Virus record (IMG/VR): IMGVR_UViG_3300018719_000003
Coordinates: 1 to 64,000 of that record
DNA: 64,000 bases
DNA from: a virus
Strand: one strand, 5' to 3'
In this document: one piece after another, positions 26-52,146 of the stretch
Position numbering within the stretch: position 1 is the stretch's first letter
Layout: each line of letters begins with the position of its first letter
The notes under the pieces: model-generated
Databases searched by the model: none
Told to the model about the DNA's origin: nothing
Seen by the model: only the letters and a program-made list of their open reading frames with translations
Program-made: the position numbers and the translations under genes

Positions 26-2716
26 GTGAGGCTTGGGACTGCTGAACAAGCAGCGATCGCCCAGTTCCCCTTTTACTCCCAAGCCATCAGCCCCAACACC
101 AATACATCACTAGGGGTTGACCTTCGGGGTGAAGCTAAACGAATCAACAGCACAACCAGGGAAACAGCGGTGACCGGAACTCCGGTCGGTGGCTTTCTGG
201 CGTCAGTCAACCCAACTCGATTAGTTAAGAACGCTCTTGAAGTTGCAACACTTACCAGTGACCAGCAGATTCTACGTGATGACGGTTGGGTGCAAGGTCA
301 GGTTTTGAGCAATGACCGATTACTGAAGTTGGGACTATTTATTAACAACAGTCTGCGGTTCCATATCCAGATTCAGGATAACGGGCACTATGCAGTAGTT
401 GAAGATAGTGTGGTAGTCTTTCTCTCTGGTACGCCGCCTCTGGCTCCCACGTATTTAGTCAATGATGTTTTCAGGGTTGAGTATCAGTCAGGCACTTTAC
501 TTTATCGAAAAAATGGCAATGTGGTTTACACGTCAACTCAGATTCCTTTATACCCTGCTAGGTTACAAGCACAGATTTTAGACTCCACTGTTTCAGCCAA
601 CGGCACCTCATTCAATGATCTAAAGTTGGCAGACGTGATGATTGACGAGCTAGGCAATGTGCAGCCTGTCACTGGCAGTACCACTATCAGGGTGGATGAG
701 GAGGATATCGAGAAATTCACCCCTAGCGATCGCTACAGAGTTAATGGGGTTGACTTCAGCATTATTGATAAAAACGAAAACACGCTAACAGTTGATAAAC
801 CCATCACCGTTGGTGGCAATGATGAAATCTATGCCGTCTACACTGCGAAATTTGAAAACACTCAACCTGTCTCCAGGATTGACTTTAACTTCGTGTTTTC
901 ACTGTGGGGAAGGGACGACAAAGGCAAACTGAAACGCCACGCGATCGCCTTCGATATCTTCATCAAAAAGACAGGCGCACCCAGTTTTACCCGACTCTAC
1001 AGAATCTTCGTCGCCAACAAAAATCAGGGTGAGATTCGGCGTTCACTCAAAATCAAGAATTTACCATTTGGCAAGTATCAATTTGAGTTTCGTTCCCTTG
1101 AAAGAGTATCAGGCGGATTCCCAATTTTGCGATTAAGTGATGGGGGTGCATTGGCTGATACTCCAACTGGGGTGATGATTGATGGCAAGCAAATCATTAT
1201 CGAGACTGAATTTGCCAGCGCCCCTAGTGAATCCAGTGCCAACAAAGACTTAAGTTTTGATGGCAAAGACCAAGTAAGCTCTGAATCTGCACCGCCGGGA
1301 CGAATCACCAGCCTGAATGAAATTACTCTACCTGCTGACTTGGGTCATTCCCGTGTGTCGCGGTATCCCAAGCTTTCGCTACTGGGACTAAAAGCGATCG
1401 CATCTGAGCGCCTCAACGGAACCCCAACCCCCAGCGCATTAATCCAACGAGGGCGAATCGGCTGGCTACTGCTATCGGCGAGTGAGGCGACTCCCGCGTC
1501 TATTCCAACTCAGTTAGTGTGCTTCGGTGAGGATTTCCTCTCATTCGGAATACAGCCAGGCAATAGGATTCGTAATCTAGATAAGAAGCTAGAGGATACC
1601 ATCGTCTCTGTGACAAGCAATACCATTACAACTACACTGGAATTGAATTGGGAACAGGGCGATCGCTTTGTGGTTTACGTCGAAGGCTCAACCTGTTACT
1701 TCCCTGATGTATTGGCTGATGGCATCCGCTCACCAGACGGTGGCTTGTCAGAGTTGGTGGATGCCGACCAAGTAATTGACTACTCCAGCTTCGTAAAGTC
1801 GAAGCGCTTCTGCATAAGGAACGGCTTCTTCTGGGATGGCACGCTGTCAGAACAGACCAACATTATCGAGTGGGCAGAACGAGAAGCGCCCCTTTCGCTG
1901 TTGTTTGCCTCAACGGTAGATGGCAGAATGGCACTGATACCGGAAGAATACGAGCCGCCAGCAGCTACTTTCACCGATAGTGTGATGGAGTCTTATAACG
2001 AAACGCTACTCCAACCCAAGGAGTTCAATCAGGTGACAGTGCGATTCAAAGACGGCAGTGATACCCGCTTCAGGGAGAAGACTGTTACCATTGCGACTCA
2101 AGAAGCATTCAACGGTTTGGAGCCAATCTACGAGGCTCCCACAATTGACGCAATGTCCAGCGTCAGCAATCCCGCGCAAGCTGAACGAATCGGACAAATG
2201 TTTCTTCAGTCATCCCGATTTCAGGACAGGGGAATTAACTTCACCGCCGGACTGCAAGGACTAGGGATTAAACCGGGTTCGCTCGTGGTTGGGGCGTCTG
2301 TCATTACCCAAATACACGCTGAAAGGTCAGGCTTCGTGGTAGCCGTGGAACCCTATGACGAGAATATGCAATCGCAAGTTGTCAAGCTGTCTCAGCCAGT
2401 AGAGGAGGGTTTTGACGGTAGCTATTCGGCATCTATTTATTACATTGACGGCACTACTAATCAGTCGAGTGTCCCCGTGGATACGGTAGACAGGGATGGT
2501 GAAACATGGCTACTGCTGTCAGAGTTGAATGCGCCCGTTAGCCCACCAGGTTTGAATCGAACAGGCGATTATTTAGCCGTAGGCAAGAATTCAGAATTGC
2601 GTCGGGTGTTTAGGGTTGCGGCGATTGAAATACAGTCAGAGTTCAAGTGTACGGTTGCGGCAACCCGATGGGATGAGCGGATGCTGGGAAGCGAGGGGTT
2701 GGTGACGATATTATGA
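26..2716 (+). CDS. Tail tip / host-specificity protein, lambda gpJ-like (probably 5' truncated by the window edge)
   Basis: 896-aa ORF whose frame stays open back to base 2. 'YPKLSLLGLKAIASERLNGTPTPSALIQRGRI' and the following region resemble the conserved core of J-family central tail fibre proteins (by eye). Confidence 0.6.
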   Translation: MRLGTAEQAAIAQFPFYSQAISPNTNTSLGVDLRGEAKRINSTTRETAVTGTPVGGFLASVNPTRLVKNALEVATLTSDQQILRDDGWVQGQVLSNDRLLKLGLFINNSLRFHIQIQDNGHYAVVEDSVVVFLSGTPPLAPTYLVNDVFRVEYQSGTLLYRKNGNVVYTSTQIPLYPARLQAQILDSTVSANGTSFNDLKLADVMIDELGNVQPVTGSTTIRVDEEDIEKFTPSDRYRVNGVDFSIIDKNENTLTVDKPITVGGNDEIYAVYTAKFENTQPVSRIDFNFVFSLWGRDDKGKLKRHAIAFDIFIKKTGAPSFTRLYRIFVANKNQGEIRRSLKIKNLPFGKYQFEFRSLERVSGGFPILRLSDGGALADTPTGVMIDGKQIIIETEFASAPSESSANKDLSFDGKDQVSSESAPPGRITSLNEITLPADLGHSRVSRYPKLSLLGLKAIASERLNGTPTPSALIQRGRIGWLLLSASEATPASIPTQLVCFGEDFLSFGIQPGNRIRNLDKKLEDTIVSVTSNTITTTLELNWEQGDRFVVYVEGSTCYFPDVLADGIRSPDGGLSELVDADQVIDYSSFVKSKRFCIRNGFFWDGTLSEQTNIIEWAEREAPLSLLFASTVDGRMALIPEEYEPPAATFTDSVMESYNETLLQPKEFNQVTVRFKDGSDTRFREKTVTIATQEAFNGLEPIYEAPTIDAMSSVSNPAQAERIGQMFLQSSRFQDRGINFTAGLQGLGIKPGSLVVGASVITQIHAERSGFVVAVEPYDENMQSQVVKLSQPVEEGFDGSYSASIYYIDGTTNQSSVPVDTVDRDGETWLLLSELNAPVSPPGLNRTGDYLAVGKNSELRRVFRVAAIEIQSEFKCTVAATRWDERMLGSEGLVTIL
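170..187. repeat. Palindrome family copy P1 (GTGACCGGA-AC-TCCGGTC)
   Basis: Read directly. Lies in frame inside the gpJ-like CDS and encodes VTGTPV. Confidence 0.85.
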
Positions 2717-14782: not shown

Positions 14783-15070
14783 ATGCCCACACCTCCCAAA
14801 CCCAAGCCGACCAAGATTCGCCGTAAGCCAGTCCCGCCTGGACTACGCTTTGATGTCTTGCAGCGAGATAAGTTCAGATGCAGAGCTTGCGGCGTTGAGG
14901 CGAAAGATGCGCGGTTGGAAATCGATCACATTGTCCCAGTCTCCAAAGGCGGGTTGACTACCTTGAAGAACTTGCAGACTCTGTGCGGTAGCTGCAACAG
15001 AGGAAAAGCTGCGAAGCTGAAGTCGGTTAAATCGGTAGCGAAGAAGGTTAGAAAGAGTGCAGCCAAGTGA
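14783..15070 (+). CDS. HNH endonuclease
   Basis: 'FRCRACGVEAKDARLEIDHIVPVSKGGLTTLKNLQTLCGSCNRGK' is a canonical HNH motif. The stop TGA lies inside palindrome P2. Confidence 0.85.
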   Translation: MPTPPKPKPTKIRRKPVPPGLRFDVLQRDKFRCRACGVEAKDARLEIDHIVPVSKGGLTTLKNLQTLCGSCNRGKAAKLKSVKSVAKKVRKSAAK

Positions 15071-15085
15071 CCGGAACTCCGGTCA
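15068..15085. repeat. Palindrome family copy P2 (TGACCGGA-AC-TCCGGTCA)
   Basis: Read directly. Its first three bases are the HNH stop codon. Confidence 0.85.
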
Positions 15086-15161
15086 ATTCTTTGTGTTGTC
15101 AGTTGCTTTTGGTTGTACCCGCATCCGATAATGGCGGTTGCGATCGCCATTATCTCGTCAG

Positions 15162-21298: not shown

Positions 21299-21356
21299 CG
21301 CAAAAAAGCGATCGCCGTTGATGTATGCGATCGCTCTTAAGCTAATTATTCATACC

Positions 21357-21375
21357 GACCGGAGACTCCGGTCAC
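21357..21375. repeat. Palindrome family copy P3 (GACCGGAG-A-CTCCGGTCAC)
   Basis: Read directly. Bases 21372-21374 are the TGA stop of the minus-strand gene 21372..21692. A T-run follows on the plus strand, 59 nt after the TerL stop. Confidence 0.85.
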
Positions 21376-21692
21376 TTTTCAGTCGGTACTCGATGCAACT
21401 CCTTCCTCTGATAAAGCCCCTCGCCATCTCGCCGCTGTACTACCACTTCACCTAGCACGAAAGCCTTGACGATGCCAGGAACGTTGGGCTTGAGGTCGTA
21501 CTTGGCAGGCAGAATGAGGACGCGATCGCCTATGCCGAGGATGCTTGTGATGTCGGGACTGTCGGGGATGGTGAAGTCAAACCAAGGCGATACTTCTGGT
21601 ACTGGTTCAGGTTCGGGTTGTCCCGGAGCGGGGATGGAGAGAGACTCGAGTTCGGGGTTTGGGGTGAGGTCAAAGATTGATAGTTGGTTCAT
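21372..21692 (-). CDS. Hypothetical protein
   Basis: 106-aa ORF whose stop lies within palindrome P3. Confidence 0.55.
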   Translation of the reverse strand: MNQLSIFDLTPNPELESLSIPAPGQPEPEPVPEVSPWFDFTIPDSPDITSILGIGDRVLILPAKYDLKPNVPGIVKAFVLGEVVVQRRDGEGLYQRKELHRVPTEK

Positions 21693-23460: not shown

Positions 23461-23862
23461 ATGGGGACACAGAATGTCAAAGGCAGGGCAAAAAAAGGTG
23501 AGGCAAGAACCGACTACGAAGAAGTGAAAATTAGGGTGAATATGACGCTCACCCAAACAGCGATCGCATTTGCAAAAACAGCAGCCAGTAGCCTCGGCAT
23601 CAGTCGCAGTGAGTTGATTGAGCGATCGCTGAGAACGCTTCAGCTTATGAATAACTTACAACAGCAGTATCACCTCACAATCAGAACCCCTTTTGAAGTT
23701 GGCGAACCTTACTTTGCTAGTGCGACTCAACTGGGGTTTACGGGGTGGAATGGTAAGCCAGACTATGAAGCGAGTGGCACGACATTGGATGAGGCGGTGA
23801 AGAATTTAGCTGAGGCAATTGGCTCTGCGTCGGGAAATGATAGGATTCCGACCGAGGGTTGA
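23461..23862 (+). CDS. RHH-like N-terminus plus HicB-like C-terminal domain protein
   Basis: 'VKIRVNMTLTQTAIAFAKTAASSLGISRSELIERSL' looks RHH-like. 'EPYFASATQLGFTGWNGKPDYEASGTTLDEAVKNLAEAI' looks like a HicB/UPF0150 fold (by eye). Confidence 0.45.
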   Translation: MGTQNVKGRAKKGEARTDYEEVKIRVNMTLTQTAIAFAKTAASSLGISRSELIERSLRTLQLMNNLQQQYHLTIRTPFEVGEPYFASATQLGFTGWNGKPDYEASGTTLDEAVKNLAEAIGSASGNDRIPTEG

Positions 23863-23881
23863 GTGACCGGAGACTCCGGTC
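23863..23881. repeat. Palindrome family copy P4 (GTGACCGGAG-A-CTCCGGTC)
   Basis: Read directly. Starts on the first base after the TGA stop at 23860-23862. Confidence 0.85.
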
Positions 23882-23993
23882 GGTAGCTGCTAAGGTATCC
23901 CAAAACACGGGGTTATATCTAGGCGTGGCGATCGCAGCCGCCAAACCCGCATTCTATCGTCGAGTGTCGAAAATACCGGGAAAATGCAAGCAA

Positions 23994-24296
23994 ATGGAAC
24001 AACGTATTTTTTTCATCGAGGTCAAGCCAGAAGATCAAATCCCCATAAGCGAACTACTGAATATGACGTTTGAATCGGATAAAGACGCTGCGATCGCACT
24101 AGGAAAGACCGAGGGTTCACAGAATGCGGTGCTTTATCCTCCTGGCGACTTCAGTTGGTACGCGATGCCGCCTCGCGGTGAGGTATTTGCTTATCCACCA
24201 GAAGTTCATCAGGCTCGGTTTATTGCCGAAGAAGGTAAGTGTCGCTGGCAGTGGGTAAAAAGGAGAGAAGGAAGTCCAGGAACTCCAATCAGGTAA
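23994..24296 (+). CDS. Hypothetical protein
   Basis: The internal ATG (MEQRIFFIEV...) is preferred, because the track start at 23859 would translate through the palindrome. Confidence 0.45.
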   Translation: MEQRIFFIEVKPEDQIPISELLNMTFESDKDAAIALGKTEGSQNAVLYPPGDFSWYAMPPRGEVFAYPPEVHQARFIAEEGKCRWQWVKRREGSPGTPIR

Positions 24297-24390
24297 TGTC
24301 CAAAATATTGGGGTTGTACCTGATCGCGGTAAGGAGGCGACTCAAGCCCTGATTTTCGTGTTGGGTGTTTAAAAACACGGGAAAATACCA

Positions 24391-24419
24391 AAGAAAAGCC
24401 ACCTCTGGATGGGGTGGCT
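24391..24419 (-). terminator. Intrinsic terminator for the minus-strand operon
   Basis: GCCACC (24398-24403) / GGTGGC (24413-24418), with a T-run on the minus strand. Confidence 0.5.
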
Positions 24420-24473
24420 TGCGCTTGTCCTACTAGCTCTTGTTACCTTGTCATACGTCGTGAGGCGGAAATT

Positions 24474-24836
24474 TTAAGCGGCGGCTAGCTCTTCCGCCTT
24501 GGGCTGGGGCAAAAGAATTACTCCAGCTTTGACTACTGGCTCCTCAAAATAAGAGAAGAATAGCTCGTAATTGAAAAGAGGATGGTAGGCTACGTTGGCA
24601 ATCATGCCAAAGACGGGATGGCTATCGAGTGCTAGCTGAATCTCTCCCTTTGTTAACTTTCTGCTAAGTATCAACTCCTCTTTCAGTTTTGCCATTACTG
24701 CGTACTCTGCTGTGTACTGAATTAACGCCTCATAGAACTCTGGGTAGAAGGCGTCAAACAATACATCGGTATCACCTCTAGAACATCGTTCAAGGATTGA
24801 CCATATCTCATCAGCCGACCAAAGACAGGCGCTCAT
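24474..24836 (-). CDS. Hypothetical protein
   Basis: 120-aa ORF. Confidence 0.55.
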   Translation of the reverse strand: MSACLWSADEIWSILERCSRGDTDVLFDAFYPEFYEALIQYTAEYAVMAKLKEELILSRKLTKGEIQLALDSHPVFGMIANVAYHPLFNYELFFSYFEEPVVKAGVILLPQPKAEELAAA

Positions 24837-25027
24837 TCGTCCTCTCCAATATTTCGCCTAATCTCAGCAGCTGCCAGTCCCCATGAACTCAACCCGACGA
24901 GGAACCATACTTTCTTGAGTGGTGGCAATTCTCCAAGCATTAGGATAAGTGCGCTTGTGAATACGGCTAGGCTGATGGCGGTGAAGATTGCGCGGTGGGT
25001 AGACTCTCTCATGCTGCTACTCCCCAA
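24833..25027 (-). CDS. Small membrane protein with two TM segments (holin-like topology)
   Basis: 64 aa with two hydrophobic segments and a charged C-terminus. Not adjacent to the endolysin. Confidence 0.45.
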   Translation of the reverse strand: MGSSSMRESTHRAIFTAISLAVFTSALILMLGELPPLKKVWFLVGLSSWGLAAAEIRRNIGEDE

Positions 25028-25826
25028 TCAGCATTTGACGATTGCCTTTGCGCTGTGCCCATAACTGCTTTAGTTTTGGCATTATTTCCCGTGGCAGTTT
25101 CGATGTGGCATGAGCCGTCATCTCCTGTCGCCAATCTTCATCCTTAACACCAATCGACTGAAGCCATTTCTTGCACTGTTGGTTCGCATTCTTGCCAGTG
25201 AAGCCGAGTCGTTTTGCAATCTCAGTGATACCCATGCCGTCGAAGGTCGCTACAGGGTTGAGATTTTGGTCTACCATCACGGTTTCACGAACGACTTCTT
25301 TTTCTGTGATAACAGCATCAGGACACCCCTTGATAAGTGCCAGCTGCCCGAAGCCGTGCATCTCTGCAATAGTTTTGCTCGTCAGCATTAGCCGCTCTTG
25401 GGCTAGGACTGTTGAGTTTTGAGCTTGAGCGATCGCAAGTTGCAACTCTAACTCTCGGAGGCGTTCTGATTGTTGAGGGATGATTACCTCAGCTTCGCGG
25501 GTTTTGATAACAAAGTAGTTTTGGGCAGCGGCGATCTCTGGTTTACGTGGATCGCCGTTCATTGCTGTGAGATAACAGCCGTAACGGGAAAGTCGATAAT
25601 CCTCTTTTGGGCGTCCCTGAGTTTTTGCGACTGAACGCCAAAAGTGCGCGGCTACGTCGTTTTGGCTATTTTGCTGTGCAATCATAGCTCGTTCGATTGC
25701 GTCGCTAAACTGTCTCCACTGATAGTAGCCAAGCACTGGCATCAGCTCACGAGCTAGCCAATACTCGCCTTGATCGTCTTCGTGGCGTATTGAGTCAAAG
25801 GGGCTTGATTGAGATAAATTAGACAT
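25017..25826 (-). CDS. DinD / Bro-N-like DNA-binding (antirepressor-like) protein
   Basis: 'FDSIRHEDDQGEYWLARELMPVLGYYQWRQFSDAIERAMIAQQNS...HF' matches the DinD/Bro-N pattern. The internal ATG at 25826 is taken as the start. Confidence 0.6.
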   Translation of the reverse strand: MSNLSQSSPFDSIRHEDDQGEYWLARELMPVLGYYQWRQFSDAIERAMIAQQNSQNDVAAHFWRSVAKTQGRPKEDYRLSRYGCYLTAMNGDPRKPEIAAAQNYFVIKTREAEVIIPQQSERLRELELQLAIAQAQNSTVLAQERLMLTSKTIAEMHGFGQLALIKGCPDAVITEKEVVRETVMVDQNLNPVATFDGMGITEIAKRLGFTGKNANQQCKKWLQSIGVKDEDWRQEMTAHATSKLPREIMPKLKQLWAQRKGNRQMLIGE

Positions 25827-25934
25827 TGGTCGATTCCTAGCTTCATTAGGGTTGACTGTTGGGGTGGTGGTTAGACTCACCACCCTTTTTATTGTCCCAT
25901 ACCACAAGCCGAATGCGATCGCCCCTTTAAGCTG

Positions 25935-26456
25935 ATGGTTGCAAACACCACCCCACAAAAATCAAGCGATAATGGGCATAGTGTTGGCACTGACCAAATG
26001 ACGCCCGCCGCAATCCTCAAAATCAAATACAAATCAGGTGATGAGACTGAGTTTCGACTAGAGAGCGATCGCCTGTTCTATGTCTTTGGTCGTGCAGCTG
26101 AGTGTCACTTCAAGTTCAAGTCAGGCAAAATCAGCCAAATTCACTTCACCATTTTGGCTCGACCCACAAAACACACGATAGTCGATGGCTTCCCAGGTAA
26201 GAGAAAGGGTGACGAGATTTTAGGAAGAAAATCCTCGACCAATAGCTTTTTGCTTAATGGCGTTGTTATTACAACTGAAGAGGCGAAGAGGATTAATCCC
26301 GCCGCTCAAGGTAGGGCAGACTTAGTACACGGGGATAAGCTACTACTGCCAGATGGGACAGAGATTGAGTATGTCTTAGTCCGACCAACGCATCTACCAA
26401 GGTACGACGATACCGAAACCGGAGAACCTTTCACAGATGTAACCCCAAGTGGATAA
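25935..26456 (+). CDS. FHA domain protein
   Basis: 'YVFGRAAECHFKFKSGKISQIHFTILARP...SSTNSFLLNGVVI' is FHA-like. An alternative ATG lies at 25998. Confidence 0.55.
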   Translation: MVANTTPQKSSDNGHSVGTDQMTPAAILKIKYKSGDETEFRLESDRLFYVFGRAAECHFKFKSGKISQIHFTILARPTKHTIVDGFPGKRKGDEILGRKSSTNSFLLNGVVITTEEAKRINPAAQGRADLVHGDKLLLPDGTEIEYVLVRPTHLPRYDDTETGEPFTDVTPSG

Positions 26457-27099
26457 GAGTAATCGCAAGCAAATCTACGTTCTGCTACGAAACGCAGTAA
26501 TCGCGTTTGTGGTATTCCTTGCGTTGCTAGAGTCTATCCATTTAATCGACTGGAGGCGTATTAATTGGGAGGTAGTAGCGCCTACCATCTTGAGCCTTGC
26601 CTGTAGCCTAGGAATTTGGGGTGTTGACCGTTACGGAAAAAATCGTGAGCAAAAATTAGCTCTTGCTGCTGCAATTAGGGCAGAGCAAGACGCAGCGATA
26701 AGACAGCGACAGGAAGCGAACCTTGCTCTAATTAATGGACTTCAGGAGAGCCTAGACTCGTCCGTAATTACCCTAGCTACCTTCGAGGATGAGCTGATGT
26801 CCATGAAGGCGACAGATACCGAAACGCTGAAGCGATTATCTGAGCTAGAGAGAGACTTGCAAACGCACCGAGAGAAGTACGCCCATACTGGCGCTGAGAA
26901 TGCATTGCGATCGCAGCAGAGGGCACTCTACAAACTACGCGCTCAACTGGACGGACTTTCGGGGCGTCATGAAACCGAGAAGCGGATCGATACTGTACTA
27001 GAGGCGGTGAACCAAACGAATGCACAGATGGAGCGGTTGCGGCATATCGTTAGGGATTTGTCGGGATGCATTGATGGTGTAGAGGAAACAGAAAAGTGA
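26449..27099 (+). CDS. Membrane-anchored coiled-coil protein
   Basis: 216 aa with two N-terminal hydrophobic segments followed by long coiled-coil-like sequence. The stop TGA lies inside palindrome P5. Confidence 0.6.
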   Translation: MDKSNRKQIYVLLRNAVIAFVVFLALLESIHLIDWRRINWEVVAPTILSLACSLGIWGVDRYGKNREQKLALAAAIRAEQDAAIRQRQEANLALINGLQESLDSSVITLATFEDELMSMKATDTETLKRLSELERDLQTHREKYAHTGAENALRSQQRALYKLRAQLDGLSGRHETEKRIDTVLEAVNQTNAQMERLRHIVRDLSGCIDGVEETEK

Positions 27100-27116
27100 C
27101 CGGAGACTCCGGTCAC
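27096..27116. repeat. Palindrome family copy P5 (GTGACCGGAG-A-CTCCGGTCAC, full 21 nt)
   Basis: Read directly. Bases 27097-27099 are the stop codon of 26449..27099. Confidence 0.9.
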
Positions 27117-27163
27117 TTGATTCTTGAGAATTTCTCTTCTAAGGATTGGATGTAGGTTAAACC

Positions 27164-27343
27164 TTATCGTGGCTTGTAAGTCGCTATTCCACTCGCTCCG
27201 TGTTCCTTGGCTATTTTTTTAACCTCTTCTTTCGGGTTGTAGTAGTTTTTGGCATCAGCAGATTTAGCTGTCCAGTTGCCGCTCTGGTCGATGTACTCAG
27301 TTGATTCTTTCCCTGGTCTAGTGATTCTATGAAATTCGGTCAT
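27164..27343 (-). CDS. Small hypothetical protein (59 aa, not in the ORF track)
   Basis: MTEFHRITRPGKESTEYIDQSGNWTAKSADAKNYYNPKEEVKKIAKEHGASGIATYKPR. Confidence 0.4.
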   Translation of the reverse strand: MTEFHRITRPGKESTEYIDQSGNWTAKSADAKNYYNPKEEVKKIAKEHGASGIATYKPR

Positions 27344-27391
27344 AGCTTTACTGGTGGTTGTGGGATGGTGGGTGATTCGTCAGGTTTAGCG

Positions 27392-27640
27392 CTAATCAAT
27401 AAATCGCTCTTTGGCGTGAGATAGCCATTTTTTCTTGACTTGATCTCGTTCTTGAGCTGCCATCCAGCCGTCGCAGAGTGCGGAGTCTTCTATAGGGCAA
27501 CTTACTCCTTGAGAGAAAAGATCCATGCCGCGATGAAAATTTTTTATTACTTTCATTTCTTGTCTGTGGACAACCTCTGCTCTTGTGGTTGCGGCTACGA
27601 CTTCTGGCTCTATCTTGCGAACTTTGTCTCTAAGGTTCAT
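27392..27640 (-). CDS. Hypothetical protein downstream of RHH-3
   Basis: 82-aa ORF with a 4-nt overlap with the RHH-3 stop. Confidence 0.5.
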   Translation of the reverse strand: MNLRDKVRKIEPEVVAATTRAEVVHRQEMKVIKNFHRGMDLFSQGVSCPIEDSALCDGWMAAQERDQVKKKWLSHAKERFID

Positions 27641-27816
27641 AGTTTTACCTCGTAAATAACTTTTGCTATTGGGACGCTTTCTGTGTTGTCAGGAAGGGCG
27701 TTCACTAGTTCCCTTACAACTACTGCTAACGGAACTCCGCGAACCTTGGCATGACGCTCTAGCTTGTCGTATGTTTGCTCTTCAAATCTGATTTTCAGTG
27801 ACCTTGTCTTGCTCAT
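27637..27816 (-). CDS. Ribbon-helix-helix protein, RHH-3
   Basis: MSKTRSLKIRFEEQTYDKLERHAKVRGVPLAVVVRELVNALP. The internal ATG at 27816 is used; the hydrophobic N-terminal extension in the track ORF is unlikely. Confidence 0.6.
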   Translation of the reverse strand: MSKTRSLKIRFEEQTYDKLERHAKVRGVPLAVVVRELVNALPDNTESVPIAKVIYEVKL

Positions 27817-27826
27817 ATTGAAATTA

Positions 27827-27845
27827 TGTACTCTTTTGGGGTACA
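27827..27845. promoter_or_regulatory. Inverted repeat TGTAC-N9-GTACA within a TTGACA...CATAAT promoter-like region upstream of RHH-3
   Basis: The minus strand reads TTGACAGTGTACCCCAAAAGAGTACATAAT. The repeat resembles the one next to RHH-1. Confidence 0.4.
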
Positions 27846-27878
27846 CTGTCAACAGATAAACAAAACAAGAGGCTATCA

Positions 27879-28151
27879 ATGGCAACCAAACCAGCATCCA
27901 GCGCTTTTCCTTATTCAGAAGAGCAGACTACAGGGTTAACGAAACGAGAGTATTTCGCTGCTATGGCTTTACAGGGACTATTGGCGAACGGTTCGCATCG
28001 CCTTCAAGTCGCAGAAGCGTGCGTAATCGGTGAGGGGCGATTTGCTGAAGTCGCCGTATGGATGGCAGACAAACTAATTCAAGAGTTAAATAGTGACAAG
28101 CGGTCTACACCTCAAGAACCGCCAGCAGATGCCAACGAGGCTGAAGACTGA
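27879..28151 (+). CDS. Hypothetical phage protein
   Basis: 90 aa. 'TKREYFAAMALQGLLANG' is a motif recurrent in small phage proteins (by eye). Confidence 0.55.
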   Translation: MATKPASSAFPYSEEQTTGLTKREYFAAMALQGLLANGSHRLQVAEACVIGEGRFAEVAVWMADKLIQELNSDKRSTPQEPPADANEAED

Positions 28152-28224
28152 TTCCACGGCTGGCATGACGGCATTGGATACGACTTGTAAAGACTGTCAA
28201 CAGGTAAAACAATCATGAATTCTG

Positions 28225-28428
28225 ATGAACGACACAGAAGCGCTTGATTGGTGGGATTTATGCAAACCCATCAGAGAAGATAGCAACGGTCAAAGAATCT
28301 GGCAGTACTTTGCAGAGGAGGTGAAAGGCGTTTGGCGATATGCGATAGTGATTCGTTTCGATGATGGCGAACCACTAACTGCTACTGTCTTTGAAAATGG
28401 AACCGTCGAAATCTACGACTACGAATAA
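28225..28428 (+). CDS. Hypothetical protein
   Basis: 67-aa ORF. Confidence 0.5.
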   Translation: MNDTEALDWWDLCKPIREDSNGQRIWQYFAEEVKGVWRYAIVIRFDDGEPLTATVFENGTVEIYDYE

Positions 28429-28466
28429 ACAAAGGCGATCGCACCGTCCCCTGAGAAGTTCTGGAT

Positions 28467-28519
28467 GCGATCGCTGCCCACTACGCAATGCAAACCACAT
28501 AGGAGCAATCAGAATTATG
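28467..28519 (+). promoter_or_regulatory. Conserved leader cassette, copy 6
   Basis: GCGATCGCTGCCCACTACGCAATGCAAACCACATAGGAGCAATCAGAATTATG followed by TCACAG. Confidence 0.55.
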
Positions 28520-29278
28520 TCACAGATTATCGACCGCGAATGGAAAGGATTGCTGATCGGACAGCGAAAGCACAATGGTTACGTGAATGCAACTCAACTA
28601 GCCAAGGCATACTACCAAGCAACGAGTATCAGAAGAGAACCTGCGGATTGGTCGCGAATTAAGCGGACGAAAGAGTCAATCGCTTACCTGGCAACTGTTA
28701 CGGGAAATCCGGTATCAGATCTAGTCGTCGTAGTTCAAGGCAATTTCACAGGTAAAGAGCAGGGCACTTGGATTCACCCAGATTTAGCCGTTAACTTTGC
28801 TGTCTGGCTGTCGGTTGAGCTTGAGTTCATTGTTTTTGGGTGGGTTGAAGAGTGGCTAAAAGATGAACAAGCTAGTCAGCAGCAACAACGTATTGCCCCA
28901 AGCCCAGAAGAGCGATTAGCGATGGGAGTTGACGCCCTCAGTAAACTAGGCATTGAATTAGATAATCCTCGATTCTCCCAAGGATTACGCGATTGGGGAC
29001 TCAATTTACTTGGTATTGCACCCCGGCAACCTGAAATTGAAGGAGAGCGCTGGCTAGGTGCTGCTGAACGCGCCGAGGAGTTGGGCTTCGGTCGAATTGG
29101 TGCTGACCTTTCTCGTCGGGTAAAGCTTGGTAACTGGCTATCAAAATATGAGCTAGTCCGACGCAAGGAGAAACGATACTGCACTGGAACAGATCGGAGT
29201 ATCTGGTGTTATCAGCTTTGTGATGAACTCGACAAAGCGATCGCTGAATACTTCGAGGACGAGGAGCAGATGGGTTGA
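28517..29278 (+). CDS. KilA-N domain protein (paralogue 2)
   Basis: 'GLLIGQRKHNGYVNATQLAKAY...GTWIHPDLAVNFAVWLSVELEFIVFGWVEEWL'. The ATG at 28517 follows the leader cassette. Confidence 0.7.
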   Translation: MSQIIDREWKGLLIGQRKHNGYVNATQLAKAYYQATSIRREPADWSRIKRTKESIAYLATVTGNPVSDLVVVVQGNFTGKEQGTWIHPDLAVNFAVWLSVELEFIVFGWVEEWLKDEQASQQQQRIAPSPEERLAMGVDALSKLGIELDNPRFSQGLRDWGLNLLGIAPRQPEIEGERWLGAAERAEELGFGRIGADLSRRVKLGNWLSKYELVRRKEKRYCTGTDRSIWCYQLCDELDKAIAEYFEDEEQMG

Positions 29279-29630
29279 CACTCCCCGTGCTAAAGCAGCG
29301 GGGATTCTTAGTTCGCAGAGACCACTTAAATTAGACTCCTTGCGTTATCTAACCCAGAGGTGGGACTCTCCCTAAGCGTTACTTCCCGGATGCCCTCCGG
29401 TAGTTGCATTACTGCAAGTCCTGTTTAGATTGAAACTAATTGTCTCAAAATTCTGATTCGCCTAGCTCCCCTGAATCTTTTACCTACTGCGAGGAAAGAA
29501 GCTAGAACAATGCAGTAGAACCGCATAGATTCACTTGTCAAGGTTCAGATTGCTGTTAAGCAGTGTAGGGTTTTTATACAGGTTAGTTACCCCGCCTGTT
29601 ATACTTAATTGTACTGACGAATGGCATGGT
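29279..29630. other. 352-nt non-coding region rich in short hairpins (candidate structured RNA or IS end remnant)
   Basis: No credible ORF. Hairpins include CCCCGTGC-TAAA-GCAGCGGGG, GGGA-CTC-TCCC, CCGGA-TGCCC-TCCGG and TTGCA-TTAC-TGCAA. Confidence 0.3.
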
Positions 29631-29780
29631 ATGTCAAGAACAAAAAAGCTAGATATTCGAGTATCTGAATATGAATACAAGCAATTACAGCAAGAGGCGG
29701 AAAAACAGGGCTGTTCAATGTCTGACTTGGTTCGGAAGTATATTTCTAAACTTCCAAAACCATTTTTCAAGGCAGGATAA
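29631..29780 (+). CDS. Ribbon-helix-helix protein, RHH-4 (orphan)
   Basis: MSRTKKLDIRVSEYEYKQLQQEAEKQGCSMSDLVRKYISKLP. Uses the internal ATG of the track ORF 29535..29780. Confidence 0.55.
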   Translation: MSRTKKLDIRVSEYEYKQLQQEAEKQGCSMSDLVRKYISKLPKPFFKAG

Positions 29781-29896: not shown

Positions 29897-29912
29897 TTAC
29901 CTGATCTCTAGT

Positions 29913-33066: not shown

Positions 33067-34515
33067 TCATTTAGAAACAAAATGAAGCCATAAATCCCCG
33101 TCAGTTCCGCAAGTCTGTTTCATCATTTCGTAGGAGTATGTGAGCTTTGCCCCGCTGCGATCGCAATCATAACCACTTGAATACCACTCGCCGTAGGGAT
33201 CGTTCACAACGAATCCTTTTTCGTTGTAGCCAATGATGGCGATGATGTGTCCAGTCCGGGTGAAGTAGCCGTGAACAATGAGTGGATTCCCCCCGGCTAA
33301 ATGAGTCTTGGCATTTGCCCACTTTGCATCAAACTGAAAGTCATCTTTGCAACCGTAGGCTTCCAAGACTTTCTTTAAGTCTGTCGGTACGTGTCGATCT
33401 AAGCCGTTGCTGTAGCAGTACTGGTTTAACTCATCCTCAAGTTGTATTCCTTGACTATTGCGAATTGGATGCCCATAGTAGGCGAGACACATTGCGACTG
33501 AGGTTACATTGCACGTTCCGTAAGGGTCGCCAGCGTTATCCAATTGGCTTAGGTAAGGAACCTTCAGAATGACCGAGCTTGATGGTATTGCCAAAGGTTT
33601 CGGCATTGCAAGTTGAGCCGCTGTCGGAGTTGGGTTGGTCGTAGCAATCGGCAGTGACGGATAAACTTCGACGTGCGGACTGGGTGAGGCTGGAGTACCA
33701 TACACGTACCATTCACCCTCTGACACTGCAAAGCTTCGCATTAACCCCGCACGTTCCCAAGCTATCCTCTGAGTTTCTAGCACGACTTTATAGTGTCTGC
33801 CCACTGATTGGAAGTCCAGAGCTTTGAGATACACGCCTTCTGGCAGTTCAACCTTTTTTTCAGGAGGAAGGCTAGCCGCGCTTGACGGTTCTTTTTTGAG
33901 AAAGGTGTTGCAACGGGTTCGGAAGACAGCAGGATTTGGCATAGTGGATGAGGTGAGGTGACCGGAGACTCCGGTCACTGAGCTTTGTTGAAGTGCGATC
34001 GCCGCAACCGATCGCAATAATTCTTTCTCCCATTGTGCCGCCAACTTTGCGATATGCTCGGCTCTATCCGTCCCGTTGATTATGCGTCGAGCATTGTAGT
34101 AATCGCACTTTTGGCTGTTAATGTAATCACTTAATTTGACTCCTGCGAACAGTCCTTGAGTCATGCCCAGAATAAGAATGCGATCACTCACGTCTTCTTT
34201 CAGTGCCAATTCTGGATTTCCCTCCAAATCAATCCCCAGCAACTCTCCGAATACGCGATAGTTGCGTCTGCCAGTAATCTGTGACGCGCCTCTGCCCTTG
34301 AATCGCCTACCATCCCCTGGCTGGGTATTGCCTAAATCTTCGCGCCATTCGTAATCGTCACCACTTGCCCACTCCTCAATCGCCTGGTATGTTCCAGCAG
34401 TTTCATGCTCTACCGTGGCGAGTACATACGCTGTTTGCTGTGGGGTAAGGTTGGCAGTGGCACAGGCGGCGAGAATGCTTTGTTTGCTCATGGGGGTAAA
34501 TATGGAAAAAGCCAA
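33067..34515 (-). CDS. Endolysin: GH19 lysozyme/chitinase-like domain, central domain, and C39-like cysteine peptidase domain
   Basis: N-terminus 'VEHETAGTY...LGNTQPGDGRRFKGRGASQITGRRNYRVFGELLGIDLEGNPELA' is the GH19 signature. C-terminus 'PYLSQLDNAGDPYGTCNVTSVAMCLAYYG...GHIIAIIGYNEKGFVVNDPYG' is Peptidase_C39_2-like. Confidence 0.8.
   Translation of the reverse strand: MAFSIFTPMSKQSILAACATANLTPQQTAYVLATVEHETAGTYQAIEEWASGDDYEWREDLGNTQPGDGRRFKGRGASQITGRRNYRVFGELLGIDLEGNPELALKEDVSDRILILGMTQGLFAGVKLSDYINSQKCDYYNARRIINGTDRAEHIAKLAAQWEKELLRSVAAIALQQSSVTGVSGHLTSSTMPNPAVFRTRCNTFLKKEPSSAASLPPEKKVELPEGVYLKALDFQSVGRHYKVVLETQRIAWERAGLMRSFAVSEGEWYVYGTPASPSPHVEVYPSLPIATTNPTPTAAQLAMPKPLAIPSSSVILKVPYLSQLDNAGDPYGTCNVTSVAMCLAYYGHPIRNSQGIQLEDELNQYCYSNGLDRHVPTDLKKVLEAYGCKDDFQFDAKWANAKTHLAGGNPLIVHGYFTRTGHIIAIIGYNEKGFVVNDPYGEWYSSGYDCDRSGAKLTYSYEMMKQTCGTDGDLWLHFVSK
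33958..33978. repeat. Palindrome family copy P6 (full 21 nt), in frame in the endolysin interdomain linker
   Basis: Encodes VTGVSGH within 'ALQQSSVTGVSGHLTSSTMP'. Confidence 0.9.
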
Positions 34516-38482: not shown

Positions 38483-38596
38483 GCGATCACTCTTAGGATA
38501 ACCGCGCTCGGTTGGACTAAACGAGAGCAAGTATACAACAGCAAAAGCCCTCAATGTTGGGGGTTTTTGTTTGGGACGTTAGGCTAATGCAACAAT

Positions 38597-38615
38597 TGAC
38601 CGGAGTCTCCGGTCA
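38597..38615. repeat. Palindrome family copy P7 (TGACCGGAG-T-CTCCGGTCA)
   Basis: Read directly. Bases 38613-38615 are the TGA stop of the minus-strand glycosyltransferase gene. Confidence 0.9.
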
Positions 38616-39506
38616 TCTAAACAACCCCGTTCGCCCCTTCTCCTCAATACTCCGCTCCCGAAAATTCACCCCACACAGCTGCTGATATTCTTCAAGCGAT
38701 CGCACACTCCCCAGCCCATACACCCCATAATCCCATTCGGCGTCATCCATACCCATGATCTCTCGATACCTCTCATAGCTAGCAAGCTCTTGTTCAACCA
38801 TATTCTGGTCAGTAAAAGGTCGATGGGCTTCGGGTCTACCGTAATTGTGGTAGATGAAGACTTTGTGAGGGTGGTAAATATTCCACCCATTCGTCACATA
38901 CCTGGCAGCAAGAGACGACTCCTCGCCGTTGAAGATCATGCCCGGATCGTAGGGAATGCCCAGGATTGCTGTGGGGGCAAAGATAAACCCAGCCGACAGG
39001 AAATAACCTTGATGGGGCGTATCTACAACGGTAGTGCAAGCCTGAAGGACTAACACTCCGTAATCATTAAAGAAGTTTGCCCCAATTGAGTAAGGCTGTG
39101 CATCGGGCTGCACTTCACCTGTAGCCGGGTCGTAGCTAGCAGGATAGGCAGTGAGCAGCGACTTCTCTGGCAATTCTTCCACCATTTCAATCAGCTTGGA
39201 GTCCCAGTCCTTAGCTAGTCGAGAGTGGGAGTCAATCTGTAAGACATAATCCTCGTCCCCTACCATCGTTTGGGTGATTAGCCGCGCCCACCCGACGCCT
39301 TGACACTGGCTGTGGTCGTAGTAGGAGACGCGACAGTTAGGGATAGCGGATAGCTCCCCAACTTGCCACTCGACCTCAGCTGCTCCCTGCCAGCAGATAG
39401 AGAAAGATATGCGATCGCTATGCTCGGCTTGTTCTAAGCAAGATTTGATTGTGTCCAGCAACTCAGGATCACGGTAAGCAGCAATTAGTACACAGATTTT
39501 TTTCAT
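38613..39506 (-). CDS. Glycosyltransferase (GT-A fold, GlcNAc-transferase-like)
   Basis: 'KICVLIAAYRDPELLDTIKSCLEQ' is a Rossmann-like start and 'LQIDSHSR' a DxH motif. Last gene of the minus-strand operon. Confidence 0.6.
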   Translation of the reverse strand: MKKICVLIAAYRDPELLDTIKSCLEQAEHSDRISFSICWQGAAEVEWQVGELSAIPNCRVSYYDHSQCQGVGWARLITQTMVGDEDYVLQIDSHSRLAKDWDSKLIEMVEELPEKSLLTAYPASYDPATGEVQPDAQPYSIGANFFNDYGVLVLQACTTVVDTPHQGYFLSAGFIFAPTAILGIPYDPGMIFNGEESSLAARYVTNGWNIYHPHKVFIYHNYGRPEAHRPFTDQNMVEQELASYERYREIMGMDDAEWDYGVYGLGSVRSLEEYQQLCGVNFRERSIEEKGRTGLFR

Positions 39507-44658: not shown

Positions 44659-44713
44659 TGGTTTCCTGCTCCTTAAATATTGGCTAAAAGTGCGGTCACT
44701 AAGCTTCGCCGAA

Positions 44714-44732
44714 GTGACCGGAGTCTCCGGTC
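44714..44732. repeat. Palindrome family copy P8 (GTGACCGGAG-T-CTCCGGTC)
   Basis: Read directly. Lies between two genes of the minus-strand operon. Confidence 0.9.
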
Positions 44733-44739
44733 GGTTTGA

Positions 44740-51767: not shown

Positions 51768-52146
51768 TGTCACCATCAACCAGCAAGCACTAAATAGTTT
51801 TGTTGCAGGGCTAGCCAACCAATTTGGTGAGGCTGTGGGTGACACTGTGCCGTTTGTGCAGTCGCTGACGCCGATTGATACCAAGCGCCTTTATAACAGT
51901 ACCAGAGCAACCGATCCGATAGTGTCAGGCAAGCTGATTGAGTGTGACATCGTAGCGGGTGGTATTTCGCTCTATGGAGAAATCAGAGAACAGGAAATTA
52001 GGCGGGATGTTGATTACGCCTATTGGGTAGAAATTAAGAATCCCTACATTCGCTCTAACCTGCCTGCTATTGGAAGCGAAATTATTGCCAACCTGAAAGC
52101 AAAACGACCGGAGTTCCGGTCGTTAGGAATGGGGAGGCAAAACTAA
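51760..52146 (+). CDS. HK97 gp10-like tail completion protein
   Basis: 'VQSLTPIDTKRLYNSTRA' resembles the gp10-family 'PvdTGrLrnS' motif. Contains palindrome P9 near its 3' end. Confidence 0.4.
   Translation: MANVTINQQALNSFVAGLANQFGEAVGDTVPFVQSLTPIDTKRLYNSTRATDPIVSGKLIECDIVAGGISLYGEIREQEIRRDVDYAYWVEIKNPYIRSNLPAIGSEIIANLKAKRPEFRSLGMGRQN
52105..52122. repeat. Palindrome family copy P9 (CGACCGGA-GT-TCCGGTCG)
   Basis: Read directly. In frame, encoding RPEFRS, 8 codons before the stop of 51760..52146. Confidence 0.85.

What the first reader, a model, noticed from the sequence alone, without database searches (positions are those of the whole stretch)
27096..27116. Palindrome copies donate the TGA stop codon of four unrelated genes
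The TGA in GTGACC, or its mirror on the other strand, is the actual stop codon of four genes:
- the HNH gene (15068-15070)
- 26449..27099 (27097-27099)
- the minus-strand gene 21372..21692 (21372-21374)
- the minus-strand glycosyltransferase (38613-38615)

A fifth copy begins on the first base after a stop (23863). This suggests one of two things. The element may insert preferentially at, or create, gene 3' ends. Alternatively, a hairpin directly at the stop codon may be selected, for termination, mRNA stabilisation or translational coupling control.
Basis: seen in the sequence. Interest (0 to 1): 0.65.

Follow-up and report, generated by a model that had tools for sequence, protein, structure and literature searches.

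The report
Stop-codon-hugging palindrome repeat in a cyanophage
A 17-21 base perfect palindrome found only in one lineage of cyanobacterial phages sits at or against the stop codons of unrelated genes and often supplies the TGA itself; it is a real, conserved feature, most likely a family of 3'-end RNA hairpins, and not an insertion that cuts genes short.

Summary
The window has nine copies of YGACCGG-AG(W)CT-CCGGTCR, where none is expected by chance. Four copies supply the TGA stop of real, unrelated genes: an HNH endonuclease, a 216-aa protein, a 106-aa protein and a glycosyltransferase. A fifth copy starts on the base after a stop.

- **Relatives:** in related phage contigs (66-99% identical) I found about 20 distinct loci. 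Six share the TGA, and about seven more have a stop 0-8 nt upstream.
- **Distribution:** the palindrome is absent, beyond single chance hits, from 185,579 representative genomes. It is specific to this phage lineage.
- **Conservation:** at orthologous sites the arms are 98% identical and the 40-nt flanks 58-65%. The centre flips (A/T, AGTT/AACT) or loses one base.
- **Protein ends:** homologues without the palindrome end at the same residue (glycosyltransferase) or within 3 residues (216-aa protein). The element does not truncate or extend these proteins.
- **Position:** three of the four window cases lie at the ends of transcription units in convergent junctions.

My best reading is a REP-like family of 3'-end RNA hairpins that act as terminator or mRNA stabiliser, with a built-in back-up stop. 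Copies appear to exchange sequence with each other, and the element doubles as a module boundary. I class it as a new variant of a known kind. Function is inferred, not shown.

The parts
27094..27118 (.). Copy D, the locus of the finding: AAGTGACCGGAGACTCCGGTCACTT, an 11-bp stem. TGA 27097-27099 is the stop of the 216-aa gene 26449-27099. It lies at a convergent junction; the next genes are on the minus strand and end at 27392.
   Evidence: RNA fold -21.3 kcal/mol, z -3.8. Flagged as terminator-like on the minus strand. Conserved in L245 as a 16-nt variant that still uses the TGA.
15066..15086 (+). Copy A, a 16-nt variant: GTGACCGGAACTCCGGTCAA. TGA 15068-15070 is the stop of the HNH endonuclease gene 14783-15070. 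A T-rich tract follows.
   Evidence: The TGA inside the palindrome is kept in four lineages (window, L245, L249, L250), although the C-terminal protein sequence and the downstream DNA differ.
21355..21375 (-). Copy B: CCGACCGGAGACTCCGGTCAC. TCA 21372-21374 is the stop of the minus-strand 106-aa gene 21372-21692. It lies at a convergent junction with the 530-aa gene 19706-21298, probably the large terminase.
   Evidence: L245 has TAG-TGA in tandem here. In L248 the same palindrome and downstream flank end a different, extra 130-aa gene.
23863..23883 (+). Copy C: GTGACCGGAGACTCCGGTCGG. It starts on the first base after the TGA (23860-23862) of the 138-aa gene 23446-23862.
   Evidence: L245 has a 45-nt 'composite' extension between the stop and the palindrome.
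38596..38616 (-). Copy F: TTGACCGGAGTCTCCGGTCAT. TCA 38613-38615 is the stop of the glycosyltransferase 38613-39506, the last gene of a long minus-strand operon (46430 to 38613). It lies at a convergent junction.
   Evidence: Homology with L117 stops exactly at the stop codon. L117 and L121 end at the same residue without a palindrome.
44690..44734 (-). Copy G: a full palindrome at 44716-44732, 7 nt after the TAA (44740-44742) of the 378-aa gene, plus a 'collapsed' second copy GACCGCAC (minus strand) at 44690-44697. It lies between two genes of the same operon.
   Evidence: L117, L013 and L121 have the opposite arrangement (upstream copy collapsed, downstream copy full). L276 has a single simple copy.
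33958..34001 (-). Copy E in composite form: CGCACTTCAACAAAGCTCAGT followed by GACCGGAGTCTCCGGTCAC. It lies inside the 482-aa lysin-like ORF 33067-34515 and encodes part of the interdomain linker (..AAIALQQSSVTGVSGH..).
   Evidence: L255 (92% identical) has the simple 16-nt form, 8 codons shorter. L256 (65% identical) keeps only the right arm, TTCCGGTCA.
52104..52123 (+). Copy H, a 16-nt variant: AACGACCGGAGTTCCGGTCGTT. It lies inside the 128-aa gene 51760-52146, 8 codons before its stop. The sense-side flank is CGA (Arg), not TGA.
   Evidence: It is conserved in L262, L276 and L281, always with CGA. The codons after it vary.
170..190 (+). Copy I, a 16-nt variant. It lies inside the tail-protein ORF that runs off the window start and is read as V-T-G-T-P-V-G.

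Best explanation
The palindrome is a cis-element specific to this phage lineage that acts as an RNA hairpin at the very end of open reading frames. It resembles REP elements as a terminator or mRNA 3'-end stabiliser. It marks the ends of genes and transcription units, and because it is symmetric it can work in both directions at convergent junctions.

Its 5' foot reads (G)TGA. When the hairpin abuts an ORF, that TGA is either the stop codon itself or an in-frame back-up stop.

The identical sequence at many loci is probably kept uniform by exchange between copies (gene conversion or template switching at the hairpin). That exchange also makes the palindrome a preferred joint where neighbouring gene modules are swapped.

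Shown: position, conservation, native protein ends, hairpin stability, loop inversions, module breakpoints.
Inferred: termination or stabilisation activity, and the conversion mechanism.
For: 1. Position depends on translation landmarks. Of about 20 distinct loci, 6 share the TGA and about 7 have a stop 0-8 nt upstream. Nine loci show zero gap to the 21-nt form. Only an RNA-level process can sense stop codons.
2. Purifying selection. Arms are 110/112 identical at orthologous sites, against 58-65% for the 40-nt flanks. Sites A, B, C, D, E, G and H are kept in relatives 72-90% identical.
3. Structure rather than half-site spacing is what is tolerated. The 17-nt and 16-nt forms alternate at the same orthologous site (A, D, E), which should disturb a DNA-binding dimer but not a hairpin.
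4. The hairpins are stable, at -12 to -21 kcal/mol.
5. Copies B, D and F lie at operon ends in convergent junctions (gene map). T-rich tails occur on at least one strand at A (all four lineages), B and D, and by my reading of the flanks at J, K and P.
6. Back-up stop. AAG-TGA in the window corresponds to TAG-TGA in L245 at site B, and L004 also has TAG-TGA.
7. When the copy lies inside a gene in the xGA frame, the T is replaced by C, giving CGA, in all lineages (site H).
8. Protein C-termini are native.
9. The same spacer, CGCACTTCGGC..GCTCAGT, accompanies the palindrome at 5 or more non-homologous loci and is present or absent between close relatives. This points to exchange between copies.
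Against: - No transcript data were available.
- Several copies lack a U-tract (C, F, G in the window).
- Copies A, G and H lie inside apparent operons, where a strong terminator would block downstream genes.
- There is no compensatory covariation in the stem. The arms are simply invariant, which also fits sequence-specific recognition or recent spread.
- Ordinary terminator-like hairpins of other genes in the window sit 8-21 nt after the stop and differ in sequence. Termination alone therefore does not require contact with the stop codon.
- The centre is restricted to A/T, which is also typical of sites read by symmetric DNA-binding dimers.
Confidence: 0.45

Rival explanations
1. It is a selfish or neutral dispersed palindromic repeat, like a REP or a tiny MITE. 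It spreads by insertion or by conversion between copies and survives only where it does little harm: at gene ends, in linkers, or in frames that avoid the TGA. On this view the association with stops reflects tolerance, not function.
For: - Identical sequence at many unrelated loci cannot arise by point mutation.
- Simple and composite forms, and full and collapsed forms, differ between close relatives.
- In-frame copies lie inside a lysin linker, a tail protein and the giant ORF of relatives.
- The genome carries TnpB/IS605-type, HNH and GIY-YIG elements.
Against: - No clean naive empty site with both flanks conserved was found.
- There are no target-site duplications, no terminal repeats beyond the palindrome itself, and no RAYT/Y1 transposase or integrase among about 58 window ORFs scanned.
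- Sites are inherited vertically across 20-30% divergence with near-invariant arms. A neutral 17-mer would have decayed like its flanks.
- Tolerance alone does not explain zero-gap contact with the stop where 70-290 nt of non-coding DNA was available (sites A, B, D).
Confidence: 0.2
2. It is a double-stranded DNA operator for a symmetric dimeric phage protein, such as one of the KilA-N or Bro-N proteins or a repressor. It would act as a roadblock or global regulator, as stoperators do in Cluster A mycobacteriophages or KorB sites on plasmid RK2.
For: - It is a perfect 17-21 bp palindrome with invariant arms and no covariation.
- The centre is restricted to A/T, as expected under two-fold symmetric recognition.
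- It is phage-specific and absent from host genomes.
- The window encodes several KilA-N and Bro-N DNA-binding proteins.
Against: - 16-nt and 17-nt forms interchange at the same orthologous site, changing half-site spacing by 1 bp.
- A DNA-level site has no reason to track the stop codon to the nucleotide or to avoid TGA in frame.
- No conserved promoter lies next to the copies.
Confidence: 0.15
3. Its main role is as a recombination linker: a portable 17-25 bp homology at which gene modules are exchanged between related phages, like boundary sequences in lambdoid phages or the promoter/stem-loop cassettes (PeSL) of T4-type phages. Genes travel with 'their' palindrome, so the stop stays inside it.
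For: The same palindrome and one flank are joined to different genes on the other side.
- Site B: an extra 130-aa gene in L248.
- Site O: non-homologous upstream genes in L010 and L257 with a shared downstream flank.
- Site F: homology with L117 ends exactly at the stop.
- Site A: the downstream module is replaced in L245 and L250.
- Site J: the right end of a TnpB element in the window sits where L245 has the foot of the palindrome.
Against: - Mosaic breakpoints fall at gene boundaries anyway, and I did not run a rigorous control against gene ends without palindromes.
- Shuffling benefits lineages over long times and is a weak selective force for holding 17 nt invariant.
- It does not explain the in-frame copies inside genes.
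Confidence: 0.1
4. It is a recoding signal. UGA-C followed by a hairpin would promote read-through or selenocysteine insertion and so produce C-terminally extended proteins.
For: All shared stops are TGA followed by C. From my own knowledge, UGA-C is the weakest bacterial termination context, and bacterial SECIS hairpins start directly after the UGA.
Against: - In-frame extensions, as I read them, are short or unrelated: 6 codons at D, 9 at B, about 33 at A.
- Many copies follow TAA or TAG stops, or are out of frame.
- The stop codon lies inside the stem, not before it.
Confidence: 0.02

Closest known systems
Bacterial REP/BIME elements, including REPs within 15 nt of a stop codon (Liang, Rudd and Deutscher 2015, recalled from my own knowledge; REPs as stabilising 3' hairpins are cited in PMC12642595)
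   Same: Short GC-rich palindromic repeats dispersed at gene 3' ends, often between convergent genes. They form RNA hairpins that stabilise upstream mRNA, and some touch the stop codon and then affect translation termination.
   Different: REPs are imperfect palindromes present in hundreds of copies in host chromosomes and are mobilised by RAYT transposases. This element is a perfect 17-21 nt palindrome confined to a phage lineage, with no copies in 185,579 representative genomes beyond chance. No RAYT was found, and the rate of exact stop sharing is far higher.
Start-associated sequences (SAS/ESAS) of Cluster K mycobacteriophages (PMC3203893)
   Same: A short conserved repeat specific to a phage cluster and absent from the host. 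It is tied to a translation landmark within a few nucleotides, associated with genes of different families, and conserved across subclusters. Its function is unknown and may involve binding of a factor.
   Different: SAS is an asymmetric 13-mer placed 3-7 bp before start codons and contains a Shine-Dalgarno core. This element is a palindrome at stop codons and works irrespective of orientation.
Stoperators of Cluster A mycobacteriophages (PMC6550527, PMC9283540)
   Same: Many copies of one short motif across a phage genome, thought to stop transcription.
   Different: Stoperators are asymmetric 13-bp double-stranded DNA sites bound by the immunity repressor. They mostly point one way relative to transcription and are not hairpins.
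Promoter/stem-loop cassettes (PeSL) of T4-type phages and boundary sequences of lambdoid phages (recalled from my own knowledge)
   Same: Repeated regulatory sequences at the borders of variable genes that also serve as homology for module shuffling.
   Different: PeSLs are about 70-100 nt and include an early promoter. No promoter accompanies this palindrome. A separate ~110-nt repeated cassette in this genome is a better PeSL analogue.
Integron attC sites (recalled from my own knowledge: the inverse core RYYYAAC often contains the cassette's TAA stop)
   Same: A palindromic recombination site directly after a cassette ORF that often donates its stop codon.
   Different: attC sites are 57-141 nt imperfect palindromes with extrahelical bases and need an IntI integrase. 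Neither feature is present here.

Membership tests
REP/BIME (RAYT-associated) | High-copy repeat of the host chromosome | tested here: not met
   A scan of 185,579 species-representative genomes gave 98 single matches, almost all in high-GC, HIP1-poor DNA (one at 39% GC with no HIP1). None looked cyanobacterial and none had multiple family-like copies.
REP/BIME (RAYT-associated) | Associated Y1 (RAYT) transposase gene | tested here: not met
   Pfam scans of about 58 window ORFs found TnpB (OrfB_IS605), HNH and GIY-YIG but no Y1 transposase. The 43 kb of the contig outside the window was not scanned.
REP/BIME (RAYT-associated) | Extragenic position at gene 3' ends or convergent junctions, forming a stable hairpin | tested here: met
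   Six of the 9 window copies lie at or within 8 nt of a stop, and three are in convergent junctions. Fold energies are -12 to -21 kcal/mol.
Intrinsic (Rho-independent) terminator | GC-rich stem-loop followed by a U-tract | tested here: inconclusive
   The stem is always present. The consensus scan flags 27118-27094 (-), 15068-15085 (+) and 21357-21373 (+). Copies C, F and G in the window lack a T-run. Site A has T-rich tails in all four lineages.
Intrinsic (Rho-independent) terminator | Transcript 3' ends map to the hairpin | not testable with these tools
   No RNA data were available.
Phage cluster-specific positional motif (SAS/stoperator type) | Short motif repeated across the genomes of one phage clade, absent from the host, at a fixed position relative to gene landmarks | tested here: met
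   Copies occur in the window, in IMG/VR contigs from samples 3300041964, 3300049933, 3300035683, 3300035685 and 3300018984, and in the JGI contigs behind L117-L121 and L245. More distant relatives L246 and L247 have none. The position relative to stops is fixed.
Phage cluster-specific positional motif (SAS/stoperator type) | Asymmetric motif with one orientation relative to transcription; bound by a repressor | tested here: not met
   The motif is a perfect palindrome and its centre base shows no consistent orientation. Binding was not testable.
MITE / IS200-IS605-derived palindromic element | Filled versus naive empty sites with conserved flanks; target duplication or a defined target | tested here: not met
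   The only presence/absence differences are full versus collapsed copies (GACCG[GAGWCTCCGGT]CAC) within tandem composites, and composite versus simple forms. No naive empty site and no target duplication were seen.
Integron attC | 57-141 nt imperfect palindrome with R''/L''/L'/R' boxes and an IntI integrase nearby | tested here: not met
   The element is 17-45 nt. No integrase was found among the scanned ORFs.
Bacterial SECIS / read-through signal | Conserved in-frame coding extension after the UGA | tested here: not met
   Extensions are 6, 9 and about 33 codons and unrelated (read). Many copies follow TAA or TAG stops.

The most novel reading that the evidence does not exclude
The palindrome defines a dedicated 'stop-associated sequence' system in phages. 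A sequence-specific hairpin, read by the terminating ribosome or by a phage factor, would couple the end of translation to the formation of the transcript's 3' end or to the gene's expression level. The same hairpin, through loop inversion and copy-to-copy conversion in DNA, would keep itself uniform and act as the joint for swapping gene modules. That would be a mirror image of the start-associated sequences of mycobacteriophages, and a small self-maintaining regulatory repeat not described before in phages.
Probability: 0.2. Interest if true: 0.7.

Novelty: new variant of a known kind. Interest (0 to 1): 0.55.

Why it matters
- **Annotation:** the 21-mer predicts gene ends and probably the ends of transcription units in this poorly annotated group of phages of filamentous cyanobacteria.
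- **Termination in cyanobacteria:** cyanobacteria lack Rho, and canonical terminators explain only a minority of their transcript ends (PMC12642595). A phage element that sits on the stop codon is a compact test case for how translation termination and transcript 3'-end formation interact in these hosts.
- **Evolution of short repeats:** the element shows how a short repeat can stay invariant for a long time. Arms are fixed, loops flip as units, and copies collapse and are restored. This is a tractable example of hairpin-driven DNA dynamics.
- **Mosaic genomes:** the element coincides with module boundaries, so it may help explain how mosaic phage genomes are assembled.
- **Engineering:** if it terminates or insulates in both directions within 21 nt, it would be a useful part for cyanobacterial constructs.

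Tried and rejected
- **Host-genome repeat (HIP1-like or SDR-like):** rejected. The genome scan gave only single chance hits.
- **Metagenome pattern scan:** wasted.
- **Known RNA family or tRNA-derived sequence:** nothing in Rfam and no tRNA.
- **CRISPR-repeat mimic (Racr-like solitary repeat):** considered. No locus in the genome scan had array-like multiple copies of this core.
- **Restriction-site avoidance of GACCGG outside the copies:** my first naive expectation suggested avoidance, but the Markov expectation does not (10 observed against 5.7 expected). CCGG is only mildly low, whereas GGCC is truly avoided. Dropped.
- **Inversion of the whole site G segment to explain window versus L117:** rejected. 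The spacer keeps its orientation.
- **Simple deletion by direct-repeat slippage for the collapsed form:** the 11-nt deletion GAGWCTCCGGT has no microhomology and is uniquely placed, so it remains unexplained.
- **Link to TnpB element ends:** the right-end junction of the window IS coincides with the foot of the palindrome in L245. I could not define the element's target motif or show any dependence.
- **Lysin copy as a clean insertion:** only partly. L255 has the simple form and L256 has just the right arm, so the copy is old and not a recent insertion.
- **Literature search for the sequence itself:** no paper contains it.

Full report
**What the window is.** The 64-kb window is part of a 107.7-kb contig with a phage gene set:
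- a tail protein with gpJ-like domains, an HNH endonuclease, a glycosyltransferase and a lysin-like protein;
- a 530-aa protein that sits next to a small terminase (Terminase_2) in relatives;
- a 3073-aa ORF, whose counterpart in the relative L246 is a 3743-aa gene with a weak Peptidase_M23 hit;
- two TnpB genes, a GIY-YIG gene, and KilA-N and Bro-N proteins.

The window carries 88 HIP1 octamers (GCGATCGC). Homologues of its proteins come from Symploca, Nostoc, Desmonostoc and Chroococcidiopsis assemblies. It is therefore a phage or prophage of filamentous cyanobacteria. No deposited phage matches it by megablast over window 14000-34000.

The core GACCGG-AG(W)CT-CCGGTC occurs nine times, with none expected. 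The fifth copy starts on the base after a TGA. With about 76 genes and 91% coding sequence, four in-register overlaps among six non-internal copies has P below 1e-6, even if copies are allowed only in intergenic DNA.

**The element belongs to the phage lineage, not the host.** An exact scan of 185,579 representative genomes found only single hits. Almost all were in high-GC DNA, none in HIP1-rich DNA, and none looked cyanobacterial. Family-like copies turned up only in HIP1-rich relatives of the window:
- IMG/VR contigs from samples 3300041964, 3300049933, 3300035683, 3300035685 and 3300018984;
- the JGI contigs behind L117-L121 and L245.

Relatives at about 66% identity (L246, L247) have no copy. 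L248 and L249 have copies with one mismatch.

**More loci show the same rule.** Across these genomes I count about 20 non-orthologous loci.
- Six share the TGA: HNH, the 106/130-aa locus, the 216-aa gene, the glycosyltransferase, L009:1569 and L010:698.
- At C, L117:12071 and L257:1591 the stop is followed directly by GTGACC.
- At L004:8110 and L245:10463 the arrangement is TAG-TGA in tandem.
- At Q, M and G a stop lies 3-8 nt upstream.
- Four or five loci lie inside genes: the lysin linker, the tail protein, the end of the 128-aa gene, and the giant ORF of L280 and L284.
- The internal copies are always read in a frame without a stop (ACC GGA G.. = T-G-V/T..), or, in the xGA frame, with CGA replacing TGA (site H, conserved in four lineages).

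**Protein ends are native.**
- Glycosyltransferase homologues of 78-98% identity are all 297 aa. L117 and L121 end ...GLFR-TGA and L122 ends ...GLFR-TAA, none with a palindrome. In L117 and L121 a methyltransferase gene overlaps the end instead.
- The 216-aa protein ends ...EETEK. Its palindrome-free homologues end ...DGEK-TAA (L252) and ...EESSF-TGA (L251).
- The element therefore neither truncates nor extends these proteins. It abuts the native stop.
- At site B the window has AAG-TGA and L245 has TAG-TGA. A single base change moves the stop by one codon, which shows the palindrome's TGA working as a back-up stop.

**Conservation pattern.** In eight orthologous comparisons the 7+7 arm positions are 110/112 identical, while the 40-nt flanks are 58% and 65% identical. 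The centre differs in all eight. It is A, T or a 1-nt deletion, never G or C. In the 16-nt form the central AGTT and AACT interchange as a unit:
- L280 versus L284, within flanks that align closely;
- the window versus L250 at site A.

Inversion of a hairpin loop by template switching would produce exactly this pattern. I infer that the DNA palindrome extrudes as a hairpin in vivo. The four copies with an arm mismatch carry single transitions and no compensatory changes.

**Composite and collapsed forms.** At five or more unrelated loci the palindrome is preceded by (G)AYCGCACTTCGGC..GCTCAGT. The start of this spacer, GACCGCAC(TT), equals a palindrome that has lost its inner 11 nt: GACCG[GAGWCTCCGGT]CAC.
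- Downstream of the 378-aa gene, the window has full then collapsed copies. L117, L013 and L121 have collapsed then full. L276 has one simple copy.
- Composite and simple forms alternate between close relatives at sites C, D and E, and probably at the L004/L009 pair, which share a downstream flank.
- Because the same spacer recurs at non-homologous loci, copies must exchange sequence. This can explain their uniformity without invoking a binding protein.
- The recurrent 11-nt collapse has no microhomology and remains unexplained.

**Module boundaries.** The palindrome and one flank stay constant while the gene on the other side changes.
- L248 has an extra 130-aa gene ending in the same TGA. 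The homologue of the window's 106-aa gene ends upstream of it with a different tail.
- L010 and L257 have non-homologous upstream genes joined to the same downstream flank.
- Homology between the window and L117 ends at the glycosyltransferase stop.
- Downstream modules differ after the HNH copy in L245 and L250.
- In the window, the right end of a TnpB element lies where L245 has the foot of a palindrome.

I did not run a formal control against gene ends without palindromes.

**How it most likely works.** Only RNA-level processes can 'see' stop codons and reading frames, so the positional rule argues for an RNA hairpin acting at the end of translation.
- Copies B, D and F close transcription units at convergent junctions.
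- At B and D the antisense of the last Lys/Glu codons supplies a T-run after the stem on the opposite strand. The symmetric hairpin could therefore stop incoming antisense transcription exactly at the gene end.
- Site A has T-rich tails in all four lineages.
- The 16-nt and 17-nt forms are interchangeable, which suits a hairpin better than a dimer-binding operator.
- Against a plain terminator: several copies lack a U-tract, some lie inside operons, and other genes in the window use ordinary, diverse hairpins 8-21 nt after their stops.

I therefore favour a REP-like 3'-end hairpin (partial terminator, stabiliser and back-up stop) at confidence 0.45. The rivals are a tolerated selfish repeat (0.2), a double-stranded DNA operator (0.15), a recombination linker as the primary role (0.1) and recoding (0.02).

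**Comparison with known systems.** The closest are:
- bacterial REPs, including those close to stop codons;
- the start-associated sequences of Cluster K mycobacteriophages (PMC3203893);
- stoperators (PMC6550527);
- T4-type PeSL cassettes;
- integron attC sites.

The element fails defining features of each: host-wide copies and a RAYT transposase, asymmetry and start position, repressor-site asymmetry, an attached promoter, and size plus integrase. It shares their logic nonetheless. No paper contains the sequence. I class it as a new variant of a known kind, of moderate interest.

Noticed in passing
window 17620-17760 (+), 34630-34790 (-), 47770-47930 (+); L117 13300-13440 and 18230-18380: A second repeated intergenic element of about 110 nt. 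It has a long hairpin (GCGGCTGACGAGTG...CACTCGTCAGCTGC) with compensatory changes between copies, then TTTTATTATCCCAT and a hairpin containing HIP1. It looks like a repeated promoter/terminator cassette of the PeSL type. In L117 one copy lies about 20 nt from a palindrome.
   Followed up: partly
whole window: Strong avoidance of restriction sites. GGCC occurs 2 times against 179 expected, GGWCC once, and CTGCAG, GAGCTC, ACCGGT and other 6-bp palindromes are absent. At the same time the HIP1 octamer GCGATCGC occurs 88 times, unusual-looking for a phage genome.
   Followed up: partly
window 7913-9055 (-), 10079-11686 (-); L245 16534-17724 and from 20379; L250 7326-8591; L122 2195-3406; L255 3569-4777: TnpB/IS605-type (OrfB) genes are frequent in this phage family and sit at different places in different relatives. 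In the window the element at about 10062-11969 replaces a segment that in L245 and L003 carries a P63C-domain gene (annotated in L245) and a palindrome, and its right-end junction lies at the foot of that palindrome.
   Followed up: partly
window 35566-35946 (-) and 36268-37647 (+): A response-regulator receiver gene and a histidine-kinase gene (HATPase_c, HisKA) are encoded in the phage, and are conserved at 91% in L117. A two-component pair in a phage seemed unusual to me.
   Followed up: no
L245 5268-6927; L251 1404-2162; L117 13814-15305: Relatives carry a weak Radical_SAM hit, a weak PTPS hit and a QueC hit (possibly a QueE/QueD/QueC set), plus a DpdA homologue. These are the families associated, from my own knowledge, with 7-deazaguanine DNA modification. 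L117 also has dCMP-deaminase-like (DCD) and ThyX (Thy1) genes, and a DNA methyltransferase next to the glycosyltransferase. The window has different modules at these positions.
   Followed up: no
window about 35560-35600 (+) and about 47095-47130 (-): Two nearly identical terminator-like hairpins, ACGAGCCACCT(4-5 nt)GGGTGGCTTT, lie about 20 nt after the stops of two unrelated genes (34773-35543 and 47147-47800).
   Followed up: no
window 21300-21345: Two HIP1 copies form a hairpin (GCGATCGC-11 nt-GCGATCGC) flanked by an A-run and a T-run between the convergent terminase-like and 106-aa genes. It looks like a conventional bidirectional terminator, 20 nt from palindrome copy B. Similar HIP1 hairpins follow other genes, for example after 15138-16832.
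   Followed up: no
window 34480-34515 compared with L255: In the lysin linker a 7-nt segment between two HIP1-like CGATCG repeats reads GTTGCGG in the window and CCGCAAC, its reverse complement, in L255. This is another small loop inversion and suggests hairpin-mediated template switching is common in these genomes.
   Followed up: no
window 54523-63744: A single 3073-aa ORF whose L246 counterpart (3743 aa) has a weak Peptidase_M23 hit. It contains a segment around window 56800-57250 that is non-homologous between relatives. In L280 and L284 that segment carries an in-frame palindrome copy which the window lacks.
   Followed up: partly
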